NCBI GenBank assembly: GCA_964016885.1
Contig: CAXHJY010000150.1
Span: 1-57,481 of the forward strand
DNA: 57,481 nt
Direction of reading: 5' to 3'
From: Eledone cirrhosa
Lineage: Eukaryota
In this document: positions 22,858 to 57,375 of the stretch, piece by piece
Layout of the letters: each line of letters begins with the position of its first letter
How positions within the stretch are numbered: position 1 is the first letter of the stretch
Notes under the pieces: generated by a model
The model's database searches: none
The model's input: the letters and a program-made list of their open reading frames with translations, nothing else
What the model was told of the DNA's origin: nothing
Made by a program: the position numbers and the translations under genes

Positions 22858-22962
22858 GTATATATATATGTATATATATATGTATATATATATGTATATA
22901 TATATATGTATATATATATGTATATATATATATGTATATATATATATGTATATATATATATG

Positions 22963-23032
<70 letters not shown>

Positions 23033-23037
<5 letters not shown>

Positions 23038-23798
23038 ATACGGAGAAAAAGACGCTTATTAGTCAGAAAAATATTTTTTTTCCTTTTGTCTTTTACTCTT
23101 TTTTCTGGGTTAGAAAATGTTTAAAACAAAATATTTTGCATTGTGTGAAGTGTTAGGGTATTCGTTAATTTATTAATTAATTAAAAATGGCATTTATTTA
23201 TTTATTTATTTATTTATATATTTAATAATTATCGGTTTCAGTATTTTATGCATTATCAAAGGCGGGCAATTTGTATTGATATAAAATGTTGGAAAGACCC
23301 CAGACTACCATTTGCTTCCATTATGGACCAACTAAGCGTTCTTGCTATAATAACACTTTTTGAACTGCTTATCCTCAAGAACTATGCTTGTAAATAATAT
23401 TATTCTTTCTTTCCCATTACCTTATCATGTCCAACATCACCCCCTTTTTTTTCTTTTTTCTTTTTACTTCAAAAACCTTGTTTGTAAATAATATTATTCT
23501 TTCTTTCCATTTCCTTAACGTATTCAACATCAAATTATTTTCTTTCCAACATTTTATACCACTACAAATTCCCCCCTTTCATAATGCATAAAATGCTGAA
23601 ACCGGTAATAGACAATTATTAAATAAATAAATAAATAAATAAATGCCATTGTTAATTAATAAGTAAATTAACTAATACCTTAACACTTCACACAAAGTAA
23701 AATATTTCTTTTTAAACATTCTCTAACCCAGAAAAAAGAGGAAAAATTTAAAAAAAAAATGTTTTCTTCCTAACAATCGTCTTTTCTCTCTATTTACA
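23033..23798. mobile_element. Fold-back/MITE with about 260-bp imperfect terminal inverted repeats inside (TA)n
   Basis: About 23033-23296 is the reverse complement of about 23541-23798; internal direct repeat TTGTAAATAATATTATTCTTTCTTTCC twice; TA tracts on both sides. Confidence 0.8.
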
Positions 23799-23859
23799 TA
23801 TATATATATATATATATTCCAACTCATGTCATCCTTCTCTCCATCTTATAATTATATAT

Positions 23860-24222
23860 ATATACAATATATTAATAAATGGAAACTATATTCATAAATA
23901 TAACGGTTGAAATAAATATAACGAAATAAATATAACGGTTGAAATTCACTATCCAGCGAATTTCAACCGTTGAGGTTGTCTTTTTTCCGGGTAAGTCAAT
24001 ATTTATTTATAAAACAAATCTGTATTTTATCTGATGAAAGCGCACCATAATTTACCTTGGTCGCCCTTGAAATATATATAATAAAATAAATATGGTTTCA
24101 TAAATATAGTTTCCATTTATTAATATATTGTGTATTTACTCCACCCTTTGTTGAGTGCTTTATATCAGTTATAAAAATGTTTAAGCTTGTTGAATCCCAA
24201 CAAATTAAATATAACCTCTGCA
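23860..24222 (+). mobile_element. Hammerhead-bearing Penelope pLTR-like element with partial inverted copy at its 5' side
   Basis: Homologous to 47878-48150 (-); ends TGCA-(TA)n; about 23864-23898 is inverted relative to about 24097-24131. Confidence 0.7.
24023..24088 (+). ncRNA. Type-I hammerhead ribozyme
   Basis: Stem I TATTTTAT/ATAAAATA; CTGATGA 24031-24037; stem II AAG.GC.ACCA/TGGTCGCCCTT; GAAA 24069-24072; palindromic stem III ATATATAT; predicted cleavage after 24080. Confidence 0.8.
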
Positions 24223-24257
24223 TATATATATATGTATGTGTGTATATATATATACAC

Positions 24258-37961: not shown

Positions 37962-38081
37962 CGAAGGAGTTGTGGTAAGGAACCAGATGGACCATAACGC
38001 ACAAGAGTACTCAATACTTAGGGTAGTAGAGTGGGTAATAGGAACGAGTAGGACTCCGACGGCTGAGCTCAAGCCGTTTCG
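37960..38081 (-). mobile_element. Penelope pLTR-like 3' end starting at a hammerhead 3' half
   Basis: Minus strand GAAACGGCTTGAGCTCAGCCGTC-GGAGTC...TTCGTT-(TA)n; homologous to 52028-52147. Confidence 0.65.
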
Positions 38082-38688
38082 ACGGCTAATTCTGGACTAA
38101 ATGAAAATTAGGGTAGAAACAATTATTTCGTATTAGTCTCGGGACTCTGAATTATTATTTCGTGGTAGTTTCTTTAGTATTTTGGCCCCCCACTTGTTGA
38201 TCTGTCACCGTAAGATATACTCGGTTGATTACTACTAACTCTTAAAATGGTCTCATTATAATTCCGTCCCACCAAGTAAACTTTTCTATAGTTTAGCAGT
38301 ACCAGTGAGAGACTTGATGACTGTCGTTAGGGAATAGTAAGCAGAAATTGTTTTTTTTTATACCTTTAACATTCTTGGTATTCTTCTATATATTTACCCC
38401 ATATTGTTTTACTTATTGTTTCGACTTCCCCCCTCCCCCTCCCTAGTATACTTGCTTGACCTCCTGCCCTGCTGTAGTTGGCACTATCAACGCACGACTA
38501 GGTTTCCTCCACCCCCTCTCCCGCTTTCTTCTACTGGCAGGTTCAGCTACCCCTTCCTTCCACAAATTGCCATGATAGAATTATGTGTCTCAACAACAAG
38601 CTTTTGACCAATCCTTGTGACAATCACTTTTAAAATATATGGAATTACCCCCTGAGAAGCTCGGCTATTCATATACCAGGATAAAAAT

Positions 38689-38800
38689 GTTCATTTAGTC
38701 CAGAATTAGCCGTCGGGGTCCTACTCGTTCCTATATATATATATATATATATATATAGGAACGAGTAGGACCCCGACGGCTAATTCTGGACTAAATGAAC
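38689..38800. repeat. Perfect inverted repeat centred on a (TA)n tract
   Basis: GTTCATTTAGTCCAGAATTAGCCGTCGGGGTCCTACTCGTTCC-(TA)n-exact reverse complement. Confidence 0.95.
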
Positions 38801-38814
38801 AGAACTTAGAACTG

Positions 38815-39267
<453 letters not shown>

Positions 39268-39290: not shown

Positions 39291-39351
<61 letters not shown>

Positions 39352-39355
<4 letters not shown>

Positions 39356-39514
39356 CAAGGCTCTGATACCATCAACACTATAAACACAGAGCTAGCATAT
39401 CTAAGAACTGACTAACTGCCTGATGAGCTCATAGCCATTCAATGGCTATCATCGAAATATATATAGCAGTAAATAAAGGATTATGAGTTCATGCAATTGA
39501 CTTATGTTTCGTCA
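39352..39514 (+). mobile_element. About 160-bp hammerhead-bearing island between TA tracts
   Basis: Flanked by (TA)n on both sides; contains an intact ribozyme motif. Confidence 0.65.
39415..39470 (+). ncRNA. Type-I hammerhead ribozyme
   Basis: Stem I ACTGC/GCAGT; CTGATGA 39420-39426; stem II closing G-C pair plus ATAGCCAT/ATGGCTAT; GAAA 39454-39457; stem III ATATATAT; cleavage after 39465; AATAAA follows. Confidence 0.82.
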
Positions 39515-41200
39515 CTATATATATATATATAGTCTGTGTTACTGTGTGTATCTTTCAAAATAGTAAGAAACCAGGGTTCATCATTCCTTACGTAATATAA
39601 TTTGAAGCAATATCTTCGAAAATATAGTTTAGCATAAGCTAACAGTACATATGACATTTTACTATATGAGGTTATACTTTCCTGTGTCGATTTATAAGGA
39701 TGAAATTGAGGTAGCACAAATGGGAACAGAACACAGTGTAATATATTACGATCTAATCCAATTCAAATCGACATCTATGAGTAAGCGAACTAAAGTAAAA
39801 TATCTTAATAAGATATCAAAATCCCACTTAAAGACATGAAAATAGTGATTCTAAAATATGGCAAACCAAATCTTACAGGGAATTGAATTATATTTAATTT
39901 CAGGTTTATCTTTCGAAGTAATTTATACTCCCCAGAATAAAGATAGATTTATAAATAAATCAGTGATCTGGTCTTTTTTGTATGTTAGTGTAGAATTATA
40001 GAATTAGTGTAGAATTATCACTAGATTACAAACGGGGATGGAATAAATTCAAATTGGTTTTGGACATGAAAAGATATTTTATTATCTCTTTATTTGTTAT
40101 CTCAGCTTATTATAAAAATGGAGAGATAAAACAGCTAATCATGTGCTTTCTAGTAACTGTTGCAATTAAACATGAAAGAATAGAAACATGAGTTATAAAA
40201 ATCATTTTTCTTTCTTCTGACGAGAAGTATTTACTCCCAATCTTTCTATAGCTAATATTCATTATATATACATATATGTGTACTTGGTGTGTGTGTGCGC
40301 GTGCGTGTATGTGTGTGTGTGTGTGTGCATATATGAGTTATGCAACATAAAACGTGCGAGTGAGTGTCTGTGTGTGCGTGTGAAAGAGTGAGTGAGTGTG
40401 TGTGTGTGTGTGTGTGTGTGCATATATGAGTTATATAACGCATAAAAAGTTCTTATGCCGTGAATTGAATCCGAGCAACTTGTATAAGAGCCAGGAATCC
40501 TAACAAAAAGAGTAAATTTGCAGTCCCTTGAATTGTTTCACCTGTTACAATAGAATATATATCATTCAGTTTATGTATTGAATTCTGTTTTTTCCATTTG
40601 CACAGCTATAGGATAATCATAAAACTAGATACACGTAAATAAAACATCGGATTTCATGATTTCAACTTTAAACACAGCTAACAACTTCAAAATAGCATAA
40701 ATCCAAATATGGAAATCCCTAAAGATTATGAAATTGAGTTTCAACAGTTATCGAAGGAATAAAAACAGAGTAAAGTGTGGTAATTGCCTTCATATAACGG
40801 AAAAATAATACAGGTAGTAGCTCTGTAATGTATATGTATAAACTAACGAAACCGGAGTAAAAGTAAATACCTATTTTACAAGTAGAAATTTTTTTAGAGA
40901 AACATAAATTGTAGACATGTCAAAGTAGCATCTAAATAAATTACAGCAGCAGTCATAACACTTTGCACATGGTTCTTATGAAACAAAAATGAGGTTATAA
41001 TACTATCATAGGCATGTAACAGAGTTTCAGTAGTAAAAATAGCAGATATTTCAACGAATTAAAACACTGGGCTAATATCTTTTAGCGTCTGGTAATGTTA
41101 TGTGGTATTTGTTCCGGCTGTTGCAGTATTTGTTCCAGTTCTATCCGTTCTGATTTCAAATTCTTTTGAGGTCAGATTTGTCGGTCATTCTTCAATGTAT

Positions 41201-47839: not shown

Positions 47840-47877
<38 letters not shown>

Positions 47878-47881
<4 letters not shown>

Positions 47882-48147
47882 AAAGTTCTATTTAAATTGT
47901 TGGGATACAACAAGTAAATATTTTTATAACTGATATAAAGCACTCGACAAGTATTTGGAGTAGATATACGATATTAACAAATGGAAACTATATTTATAAA
48001 ACCATATTTATTTCATTATACATATTTCAAGGATACCAAGTTAAATTATGGTATGCCTTCATCAGACAAAATACAATATATACCAGTTTTATAAATAGAC
48101 ATTGACGTACCCTTTTAAAATGCGACCGTTACTTTTGGAAGACATCA

Positions 48148-48150
<3 letters not shown>
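47878..48150 (-). mobile_element. Hammerhead-bearing pLTR-like element, same family as 23990-24222
   Basis: Colinear homology, same TGCA-(TA)n 3' end, TA tracts on both sides. Confidence 0.75.
48009..48073 (-). ncRNA. Type-I hammerhead ribozyme
   Basis: Minus strand TATTTTGT-CTGATGA-AGGCATACCA...TGGTATCCTT-GAAA-TATGTA-TA-ATGAAATA; stems retained through G-U pairs. Confidence 0.78.
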
Positions 48151-51638: not shown

Positions 51639-51686
<48 letters not shown>

Positions 51687-51691
<5 letters not shown>

Positions 51692-51782
51692 AGATTCAGA
51701 ACCCACCCCGGCGGCTGAGCTCTAGCCGTTTCGAGAACTAGATCCGAACTATGGTCCCCCTGGATTTTTTTACCACACCTTA

Positions 51783-51844
<62 letters not shown>

Positions 51845-51985
51845 TAAGGTGTGGTAAAAAAATCCAGGGGGACCATAGTTCGATATATATCAGATAAGGT
51901 GTGGTAAAAAAATCCAGGGGGACCATAGTTCGGATCTAGTTCTCGAAACGGCTAGAGCTCAGCCGCCGGGGTGGGTTCTGAATCT

Positions 51986-51990
<5 letters not shown>
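51687..51990. mobile_element. Perfect fold-back element around (TA)n with an extra partial arm
   Basis: 51687-51787 is the exact reverse complement of about 51890-51990; 51840-51882 repeats part of the right arm; arm carries the hammerhead 3' half GAAACGGCTAGAGCTCAGCCGCC-GGGGT. Confidence 0.85.
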
Positions 51991-52027
<37 letters not shown>

Positions 52028-52029
<2 letters not shown>

Positions 52030-52185
52030 CGAAGGAAATGTGGTAAGGAACCAGGTGGACCATAACGCACCAAAGTACTCAATACTTAGGGTAGTAGAGT
52101 GGGTAATAGGAACCAGTAAGACCCCGACGGCTGAGCTCAAGCCGTTTAGAAACGGCTTGAGCTCAGCCGTCGTGGTCTTACTGGT

Positions 52186-52190
<5 letters not shown>
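52028..52190 (-). mobile_element. pLTR-like 3' end with terminal fold-back hairpin (about 52107-52190)
   Basis: Homologous to 37960-38081; hairpin centred on GTTTAGAAAC; TA tracts on both sides. Confidence 0.75.
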
Positions 52191-52224
<34 letters not shown>

Positions 52225-57007: not shown

Positions 57008-57375
57008 TTATCCGGGAAATGTCTCTCTAGTAACATTGTCTACAAATGCAAGGTTGAAACACCCACGTCCCGTAGGGCCTACACAGGGTTAACCGCCAAT
57101 AGATTCAAGCAGCGTCTTTACATGCATACCGATTCTTTTCGTAACCCTTTAAGAAGAAATATGACGTCACTTTCAGCTTATATCTGGAGTCTAAAAGACA
57201 ACCACACCCAATATAAGTTACACTGGGAGATCCTAGCTAGGGCTAGATTGTATAACGGAAATAAAAGACCGCTGAGGCCCTGGAAATACTCTACGCCCAA
57301 AACCACATCTTAAACAAAAAGTCTGAGGCAATTTCGGCTTGTAAACATAAATTGCACAAAACATTCCTGTATTAC
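57008..57375 (+). pseudogene. Penelope-like GIY-YIG endonuclease fragment
   Basis: LSGKCLSSNIVYKCKVETPTSRRAYTGLTANRFKQRLYMHTDSFRNPLRRNMTSLSAYIWSLKD...WEILARARLY, then after a frameshift LEILYAQNHILNKKSEAISACKHK: IVY/YTG, catalytic R, LNK.SE and C.H motifs. Confidence 0.85.

What the first reader, a model, noticed from the sequence alone, without database searches (positions are those of the whole stretch)
24023..24088. Intact hammerhead with structure-preserving changes in a second copy
It has a perfect 8-bp stem I and a full core. The diverged copy at 48009-48073 (-) keeps CTGATGA/GAAA/TA and retains stems I and II through G-U and altered pairs. Both elements end at the same TGCA|(TA)n junction, implying a defined 3' end and target.
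Basis: partly seen in the sequence, partly recalled or inferred. Interest (0 to 1): 0.75.

Follow-up and report, generated by a model that had tools for sequence, protein, structure and literature searches.

The report
Penelope retroelement end with hammerhead

Summary
Observation confirmed. 24023-24088 (+) and 48009-48073 (-) are minimal type I hammerheads: full core, 8-bp stem I, interrupted stem II, palindromic stem III that likely needs a dimer. Both lie in 5'-truncated pseudo-LTR ends of a Hydra-clade Penelope-like element: elsewhere the same repeat flanks an RT + C-terminal GIY-YIG ORF with the Hydra motifs; 24,710 exact pattern matches genome-wide, control 0. Copy 2 is not a decayed copy but a second, young subfamily (98-99% to 39 others). 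Across subfamilies no catalytic position is replaced, while N7 takes all four bases and stem II covaries. The TGCA|(TA)n junction is one of two fixed ends (J1, J2) inside the element's 5' UTR; head-to-head arms nearly always pair one J1 with one J2, and each end lies 2-3 nt after TATAT before a copy of a bulged hairpin, likely the RT-positioning signal. The scan found both the Hydra reading and the twin hairpin before on other DNA. Cleavage and expression untested. Known kind, new family.

The parts
23864..23892 (-). Short inverted arm of the same insertion; its outer end is the J1 end joined to (TA)n
   Evidence: Reverse complement of 24103-24131
23893..23946 (.). Scrambled joint between the arms: short repeated pieces of the element, including a piece carrying the same private base as 24099
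   Evidence: Sequence; template switching is inferred
23947..24227 (+). 5'-truncated pseudo-LTR plus tail of a Hydra-clade Penelope-like element, subfamily A
   Evidence: 95-97% identical best copies, 2201 candidates; the same sequence precedes the RT-EN ORF in L039, L034, L047, L050, L060
24004..24106 (+). Extended stem I: distal 12-bp helix 24004-24015 / 24095-24106 (one private mismatch at 24099) closing an internal loop
   Evidence: MFE of the 106-nt stretch; kept with other sequence in subfamily F by eye
24023..24088 (+). Minimal type I hammerhead: stem I 8 bp, core 24031-24037 and 24069-24072, stem II 3 + 2 + 4 bp with a C-C mismatch and a bulge, palindromic stem III 24072-24079, predicted cut 24080|24081
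24130..24135 (+). J1: first fixed end of the family (most copies read G-TATAT here; this copy has one change)
   Evidence: 21 of 53 arms in subfamily-A loci and 48 of 94 arms in the chromosome-1 sample end here
24138..24159 (+). Bulged hairpin 1 (RCTC, upper stem-loop, 2-nt bulge, GAGY, RCT); loop hypervariable among subfamily-A copies; likely RT-positioning signal
   Evidence: function inferred
24219..24227 (+). J2: the TGCA|(TA)n junction; TATAT 24223-24227 is element-encoded, so the exact end is ambiguous by up to 5 nt; in full elements hairpin 2 and the start codon follow
47873..48150 (-). Second 5'-truncated pseudo-LTR plus tail, young subfamily B, (TA)n on both sides, no inverted arm
   Evidence: 98-99% identical to 39 other copies, 1648 candidates; one copy lies downstream of a related ORF on the same strand (L297)
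48009..48073 (-). Hammerhead of subfamily B, identical to the commonest form of that subfamily
   Evidence: 30 of 143 hammerhead stretches parsed have exactly this sequence
47939..47961 (-). Bulged hairpin 1 of subfamily B (3-bp upper stem)

Best explanation
Both motifs are minimal type I hammerheads in 5'-truncated pseudo-LTR ends of a high-copy Hydra-clade Penelope-like retroelement that inserts in (TA)n; the ribozyme likely cuts the tandem precursor RNA slowly, as a dimer or with help from the element's protein, and these two ORF-less copies are likely inert. Steps: (shown) the full unit is pLTR - 5' UTR - RT/GIY-YIG ORF - AT-rich 3' UTR - pLTR, about 4.2 kb, hammerhead in the sense of the ORF; insertions end at one of two fixed TATAT sites (J1, J2), about 50 and 140 nt past the cut site; head-to-head arms pair J1 with J2; a bulged hairpin starts 2-3 nt after each TATAT. 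(Inferred) the RT-EN protein nicks both strands of a (TA)n tract and primes reverse transcription internally at J1 on one strand and at J2 on the other, positioned by the two hairpins and helped by 2-5 nt of TATAT pairing; early termination leaves stubs like these two. (Inferred) selection on the ribozyme acts on the master copies; most insertions are copied from uncut RNA, so cutting is not a required step of each insertion.
For: ORF link: 5 of 30 RT loci carry the hammerhead directly upstream of the ORF on the same strand, 1 downstream and 6 on inverted arms; full units in L061, L063, L064, L066; P0001, 743 aa, has RWR, DKT, FLD, SNHP, a VY...YVG GIY-YIG domain and CxxC..E..N..CxH, sister copies the CxCX5C linker, the features listed for Hydra in PMC8557442 section 11. 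Selection: in 97 of the first 100 core-free matches (3 dropped for indels) 0 of 12 catalytic columns but 20 of 43 other columns carry a variant shared by 3 or more insertions (Fisher p 0.002, relatedness not modelled); N7 is T70, A11, G10, C6. 26 subfamily representatives: 95.5% of cells paired against 38-51% when slid; 6 of 9 stem II pairs change on both sides. Ends: J1+J2 in 16 of 19 head-to-head pairs (A loci) and 12 of 14 (B loci); no J1+J1 in any set. Internal RT starts defining the tail, cleavage and extension of both strands, a protein-assisted hammerhead dispensable for insertion in vitro: PMC11167929. Uncut template: 88 of 122 arms run 130 nt or more upstream across the cut site.
Against: No cleavage or expression was tested. 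Stem II starts with A-U, not the usual G10.1-C11.1, and its first pair is unpaired in 6 of 26 representatives. RNAalifold recovers stem II but puts stem I in another register. Stem I shows only 1 double-sided change in 1 of 26 rows. The 26 rows were hand-picked, many through a pattern that fixes core and stem I. Clade placement rests on motifs and by-eye comparison with published sequences, not a tree; Pfam gave no family for P0001. P0001 itself is a decayed copy (changed YRDD motif, shortened linker). A and B loci were fetched by a query ending at J2, so only the partner's end is a free observation. The hairpin's role is a correlation of position; the third hammerhead family gave no copy running past its end (0 of 12 loci), so no independent family was tested in this genome.
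Confidence: 0.88

Rival explanations
1. The ~270-nt units are a non-autonomous retrozyme or SINE-like family that replicates as its own small (circular) RNA, cut out by the hammerhead.
For: Most copies are short, ORF-less and very numerous; animal retrozymes are proposed to derive from PLE pLTRs (bioRxiv 10.64898/2026.07.22.740005, part 1 of 5 read); no strict subfamily-B copy was seen running into the 5' UTR (0 of 24 loci).
Against: 5' ends are ragged and run into a shared AT-rich 3' UTR and the ORF; no head-to-tail arrays of complete short units in the loci read (one locus has four 102-nt partial repeats); ends are at J1/J2, not at the cut site.
Confidence: 0.06
2. The motif is kept as a folded protein-binding or processing element (or a passenger) and does not cleave in vivo.
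For: Weak stem II base and 2-bp stem III; low in vitro activity of metazoan PLE hammerheads (PMC4209133); no reads ending at the cut site for the anole element (PMC11167929); no clear pile-up of 5' ends at the cut site here (about 4 of 122 arms within -1 to +6).
Against: Exactly the catalytic nucleotides, including U16.1 and H17, are invariant across subfamilies while N7 is free, the pattern expected of selection for the catalytic fold; the anole hammerhead does cleave with protein.
Confidence: 0.2
3. This particular copy is a domesticated host ribozyme acting at this locus.
For: The 66-nt motif is intact.
Against: It is identical to the commonest form of a recent subfamily (20 of 143 stretches), carries a private break in distal stem I, sits in microsatellite-rich DNA, and its only close relative in the window is 24 kb away on the other strand, so no cis dimer.
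Confidence: 0.02

Closest known systems
Hydra clade of C-terminal EN+ Penelope-like elements, including Hydra-1_Obim (Craig et al. 2021, PMC8557442; passages, section 11 and supplement parts 2, 52, 53 read)
   Same: Single RT + C-terminal GIY-YIG ORF, DKT, CxCX5C linker, CxxC and CxH around E and N, (TA)n target, sense hammerhead in the pLTR, inverted 5' arm and one-sided tail.
   Different: A different family from Hydra-1_Obim (other hammerhead, other UTRs; protein similar only at family level, by eye). Unit about 4.2 kb with a 1.3-1.5 kb 3' UTR against under 3 kb; RWR for RWK; tail about 90 nt against the 30-40 bp given for PLEs; hammerhead with longer stem I and a C-C mismatch in stem II than the 26 Hydra families listed in File S2; about 25,000 hammerhead-bearing ends.
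Minimal type I hammerheads of metazoan PLE pseudo-LTRs (Cervera and De la Pena 2014, PMC4209133; parts 1-2 of 4 read)
   Same: Type I, long stem II, tiny palindromic stem III predicted to work as a dimer, many covarying families per genome, mostly solitary truncated copies, pairs on opposite strands 100-700 bp apart.
   Different: G10.1-C11.1 is not kept in most subfamilies here; stem I is 8 bp plus a 12-bp distal helix rather than 4-5 bp.
Poseidon element of Anolis carolinensis, PAc (Frangieh et al. 2024, PMC11167929; parts 1-2 of 4 read)
   Same: Two internal RT start sites that delimit the tail, both target strands cut and extended, AT-rich target, protein-binding region 3' of the start, hammerhead not needed for insertion in vitro.
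   Different: There the starts lie in the ORF, in an AC-rich stem-loop, and are not homologous to the target; here both lie in the 5' UTR at TATAT tracts that match the (TA)n target and each precedes a copy of one bulged hairpin.

Membership tests
Type I hammerhead ribozyme | CUGANGA, GAAA and UH core in order around three helices, ends in stem I | tested here: met
Type I hammerhead ribozyme | Helices supported by covariation | tested here: met
   Stem II 6 of 9 pairs double-sided; stem I 98.6% paired but only 1 double-sided change; stem III invariant
Type I hammerhead ribozyme | Match to an Rfam hammerhead model | tested here: not met
   No hammerhead family among 8 matches at E up to 10; not a defining test for minimal PLE variants, which needed custom descriptors in PMC4209133
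Type I hammerhead ribozyme | Self-cleavage 3' of H17 | not testable with these tools
   Needs an in vitro assay
Minimal PLE hammerhead (dimer type) | Stem III of 1-2 bp around a palindrome able to pair between two copies | tested here: met
   8-nt self-duplex -3.2 kcal/mol (copy 1), -2.2 with G-U pairs (copy 2); loop III varies in a shared way at one A/G position only
Minimal PLE hammerhead (dimer type) | G10.1-C11.1 pair with an extra base after A9 | tested here: not met
   First stem II pair A-U in 17, G-U in 3, unpaired in 6 of 26; an extra-base register gives G-C only in some subfamilies
EN+ Penelope-like element | Single ORF with PLE-type RT and GIY-YIG endonuclease flanked by pseudo-LTRs in tandem | tested here: met
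   L039/L061, L063, L064, L066; no ORF beside the two window copies
EN+ Penelope-like element | 5' truncation, inverted 5' arm, tail at one end | tested here: met
Hydra clade | C-terminal EN with CxCX5C linker; CxxC and CxH around E and N; DKT; RWK | tested here: met
   CxCX5C in L041 and L053 (shortened in P0001), CSLC..E, N..CKH, DKT; RWR in place of RWK
Hydra clade | Insertion into (TA)n | tested here: met
   All 30 subfamily-A loci end in TA repeats; J1 and J2 classes
Hydra clade | RT groups with Hydra families in a phylogeny | not tested
   Published reference proteins were only read in the supplement and compared by eye; no tree was built
Non-LTR retrozyme | Head-to-tail tandem units each with a hammerhead, no link to an ORF | tested here: not met

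The most novel reading that the evidence does not exclude
Hydra-clade Penelope elements carry two copies of one small bulged hairpin (RCTC, stem-loop, 2-nt bulge, GAGY, RCT) in the 5' UTR, and the RT starts copying a few bases 5' of each, one start on each cut strand of a (TA)n target. This would explain the inverted arm, the one-sided tail and the need for tandem copies (a stub carries at most one signal), and the four-way freedom of N7 against a frozen core in about 25,000 ends would show that ribozyme catalysis is selected in vivo although it is dispensable for insertion in vitro. I found no description of the hairpin in print (search; PMC8557442 and PMC11167929 as read); this scan noted it before on other DNA.
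Probability: 0.55. Interest if true: 0.6.

Novelty: new member of a known kind. Interest (0 to 1): 0.32.

Why it matters
The hammerhead itself is expected: PLE pseudo-LTRs carry them, and Hydra elements with (TA)n targets are described, also in octopus. What this family adds is scale and a natural mutational scan: many active subfamilies kept every catalytic base while changing N7 and stem II, which bears on the open question whether PLE hammerheads have a function (PMC8557442 calls it unclear; PMC11167929 finds it dispensable in vitro). The two fixed ends, each beside a copy of one hairpin, give a concrete, small, testable model for how these telomerase relatives choose their start sites and make inverted-plus-tail insertions.

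Tried and rejected
Rfam on the whole window gave only microsatellite-driven miRNA matches among the 150 of 594 listed and no hammerhead on the element. Pfam found nothing for the RT fragment or P0001; the PDB sequence search gave 2 irrelevant hits; the protein search gave 24 unnamed or mis-named relatives at 30-39%. My first clade guess, Neptune, was dropped after reading the Hydra diagnostics. Sequencing runs: no RNA holder listed; nothing was laid. Whether the two arms come from one RNA or two: 52 head-to-head pairs differ by 0-6% and several share variants absent from other copies, so a common source is indicated but one molecule cannot be told from two. A pile-up of 5' ends at the cut site as a sign of cleavage in vivo: not seen; 5 of 122 rows lie at -1 to +6, one of them an alignment artefact by eye. 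A strict subfamily-B copy running into the 5' UTR: 0 of 24 pattern matches; 1 of 8 extended B loci has a related ORF upstream. A tail for the third hammerhead family: 0 of 12 of 60 matches read. Luense et al. 2016 (dimer cleavage) is not held and is cited only through the review PMC6765202 (passages). PMC13282606 (passages) reports Penelope-like expansions in Octopus vulgaris but has no occurrence of hammerhead, ribozyme or Hydra in its main text; its supplements and repeat library were not seen and may already hold this family. Sequence look-up in earlier findings gave nothing.

Full report
Observation. The window is a whole 57-kb contig of a 3.0-Gb, AT- and microsatellite-rich animal genome; a cephalopod is my inference from composition and from one named relative of the protein. 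At 24023-24088 the sequence reads stem I (8 A-U pairs), CUGAUGA, an interrupted stem II (3 bp, C-C mismatch, 2 bp, bulge, 4 bp, 10-nt loop), GAAA, a palindromic 8-mer for stem III, UA and the 3' half of stem I. Copy 2 at 48073-48009 keeps the core. The elements align at 83.5% over 272 nt. A relaxed descriptor finds these two and a third hammerhead at 39420 in 23001-57481, against 0.015 per shuffle; a stricter one missed copy 1. Folding alone is unremarkable (z -0.76 and -1.32, stem I not in the MFE) and Rfam has no hammerhead match. A distal 12-bp helix extends stem I; with it the MFE forms stem I in copy 1 and most of it in copy 2.

Copy number and subfamilies. Copy 1 has 2201 candidates (40 scored, 95-97% identical). 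Copy 2 has 1648 candidates, and the 39 other scored copies are 98-99% identical, so it is a separate young subfamily, not a decayed copy. A core-anchored pattern has 12,555 + 12,155 exact matches and a flank-anchored, core-free pattern 9,072 + 9,064, with 0 for the reversed controls.

Selection on the ribozyme. I fetched the first 100 listed core-free matches. Dropping 3 with indels, 0 of 12 catalytic columns carry a variant shared by three or more insertions, against 20 of 43 other columns (Fisher p 0.002, columns treated as independent); the catalytic columns hold only 8 private changes, while N7 is T70, A11, G10, C6. In 26 hand-picked subfamily representatives 95.5% of cells pair (38-51% when slid), 6 of 9 stem II pairs change on both sides, and stem I changes almost only to G-U (1 double-sided cell). 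Between the two window copies there are two true compensatory changes in stem II. Against this: the base of stem II is sloppy (unpaired in 6 of 26) and lacks G10.1-C11.1, RNAalifold misplaces stem I, and many representatives came through a pattern that fixes core and stem I.

The host element. Longer copies run upstream into a shared AT-rich region and RT remnants. A search with the RT fragment gave 26,226 candidates. Of 30 such loci, 5 have the hammerhead repeat just upstream of the ORF on the same strand, 1 downstream, 6 on inverted arms. Full units read pLTR, ORF, 1.3-1.5 kb 3' UTR, pLTR, about 4.2 kb, with an inverted arm at the 5' side (L061, L063, L064, L066). The ORF (P0001, 743 aa, a slightly decayed copy) has RWR, DKT, FLD, SNHP, a C-terminal GIY-YIG domain, CxxC before E and CxH after N; sisters have the CxCX5C linker. 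These are the Hydra-clade marks in PMC8557442 section 11, which also gives (TA)n targeting and hammerheads. Its supplement lists Hydra-1_Obim from Octopus bimaculoides, with another hammerhead and other UTRs: same clade, different family, by eye. Subfamilies close to B are linked to ORFs 68-76% identical to P0001, and one strict B copy follows such an ORF across an interrupted 3' UTR (L297). No tree was built.

The junction. In ORF-linked copies TGCA continues as TATAT and about 45 more nt to the start codon, so the junction is internal to the 5' UTR and TATAT is element-encoded. A second sharp end, J1, lies about 90 nt upstream at another G-TATAT. Arms fall into these two classes: 30 J2, 21 J1, 2 other in A loci; 30, 12, 4 in B loci; 31 J2, 48 J1, 9 other, 4 cut, 2 running to the ORF in the chromosome-1 sample. 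Head-to-head pairs are J1+J2 in 16 of 19 (A), 12 of 14 (B) and 8 of 18 in the sample (the other 10 have one arm cut, unclassified or running to the ORF); J1+J1 never occurs and J2+J2 once. Either end can be the outer end of the inverted arm. Window copy 1 has this layout in miniature: a 29-nt inverted J1 arm, a scrambled joint and a direct arm ending at J2. This matches the inverted arm and one-sided tail of PLEs (PMC8557442) and the two internal RT starts measured for the anole Poseidon element, which cuts and extends both strands (PMC11167929). Subfamilies that have lost the internal TATAT still end at J1, so position matters more than pairing.

A candidate signal. Each end lies 2-3 nt after TATAT before a copy of one hairpin: RCTC, an upper stem-loop, a 2-nt bulge, GAGY, RCT. 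Copy 1 is in the tail (24138-24159); copy 2 is just before the start codon and is seen only in copies that run on (11 stretches); the first pair is A-U in one and G-C in the other. The motif occurs 292 times in 825 kb of fetched loci (enriched for this family, overlaps not merged) against 1-17 in 20 shuffles; in 104 of 127 distinct forms the upper stem pairs with a 2-nt bulge, against 11-16 for other bulge sizes, and several forms belong to unrelated repeats. By eye it is present in 4 of the 6 published Hydra consensus sequences (twice in Hydra-1_Ajap; a few bases after a TATAT in Hydra-2_Ajap and Hydra-1_Crog), weak in Hydra-1_Obim and not seen in Hydra-1_Amil. Its role is inferred from position only. 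I had noted hairpin 1; an earlier scan note spoke of a shared hairpin before I saw the duplication, and two further notes state the same twin-hairpin reading; these are unchecked AI notes and not independent support.

What the ribozyme does. 88 of 122 arms read 130 nt or more across the cut site and there is no clear pile-up of 5' ends at it, so uncut RNA is the usual template, as for the anole element. Metazoan PLE hammerheads cleave weakly and as dimers (PMC4209133; review PMC6765202). The most likely role is slow or protein-assisted cutting of tandem or read-through precursor RNA in master elements. The two window copies are ORF-less, 24 kb apart on opposite strands, and likely inert.

Verdict. 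Real, conserved hammerhead; known kind of element; new, very abundant family. The junction is better read as an internal reverse-transcription start than as a 3' end. Interest 0.32.

Noticed in passing
window 39415-39470 (+), element about 39350-39520: A third minimal hammerhead of an unrelated family (5-bp stem I, same palindromic stem III), 97-99% identical to 39 other copies that end at one (TA)n junction; Hydra-like endonuclease remnants lie upstream in 4 of 32 loci read.
   Followed up: partly
window 57020-57372 (+): Decayed GIY-YIG endonuclease fragment, 41% identical to P0001 (E 4e-13), a further Hydra-like family cut by the contig end.
   Followed up: partly
window 24144-24147; L001-L030: The loop of hairpin 1 is hypervariable among subfamily-A copies that are 96-97% identical elsewhere, but nearly invariant in subfamily B: many masters with a free loop, or an RT error hot spot.
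   Followed up: partly
window 52074-52100 (-) and 38006-38032 (-): The same bulged-hairpin motif in another, unrelated repeat family, twice in this window and many times in fetched loci.
   Followed up: no
window 38688-38801, 38816-39266, 51649-52028, 52106-52191: Perfect or near-perfect fold-backs, several centred on (TA)n (57-, 107-, 146- and 69-bp arms); probably other head-to-head or tail-to-tail retroelement stubs.
   Followed up: no
window 22925-23297 and 23541-23902: A 375-nt inverted repeat at 81-86% identity immediately left of the element.
   Followed up: no
window 1-23033: About 23 kb of TA/TATG-rich satellite with interspersed repeated unique blocks (e.g. 1872 and 4709; 10617 and 14688).
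   Followed up: no
L297 (G000:C1:393229200-393234900): A LINE-like RT fragment with an (ATG)n tail sits inside the 3' UTR of a subfamily-B element (by eye).
   Followed up: no
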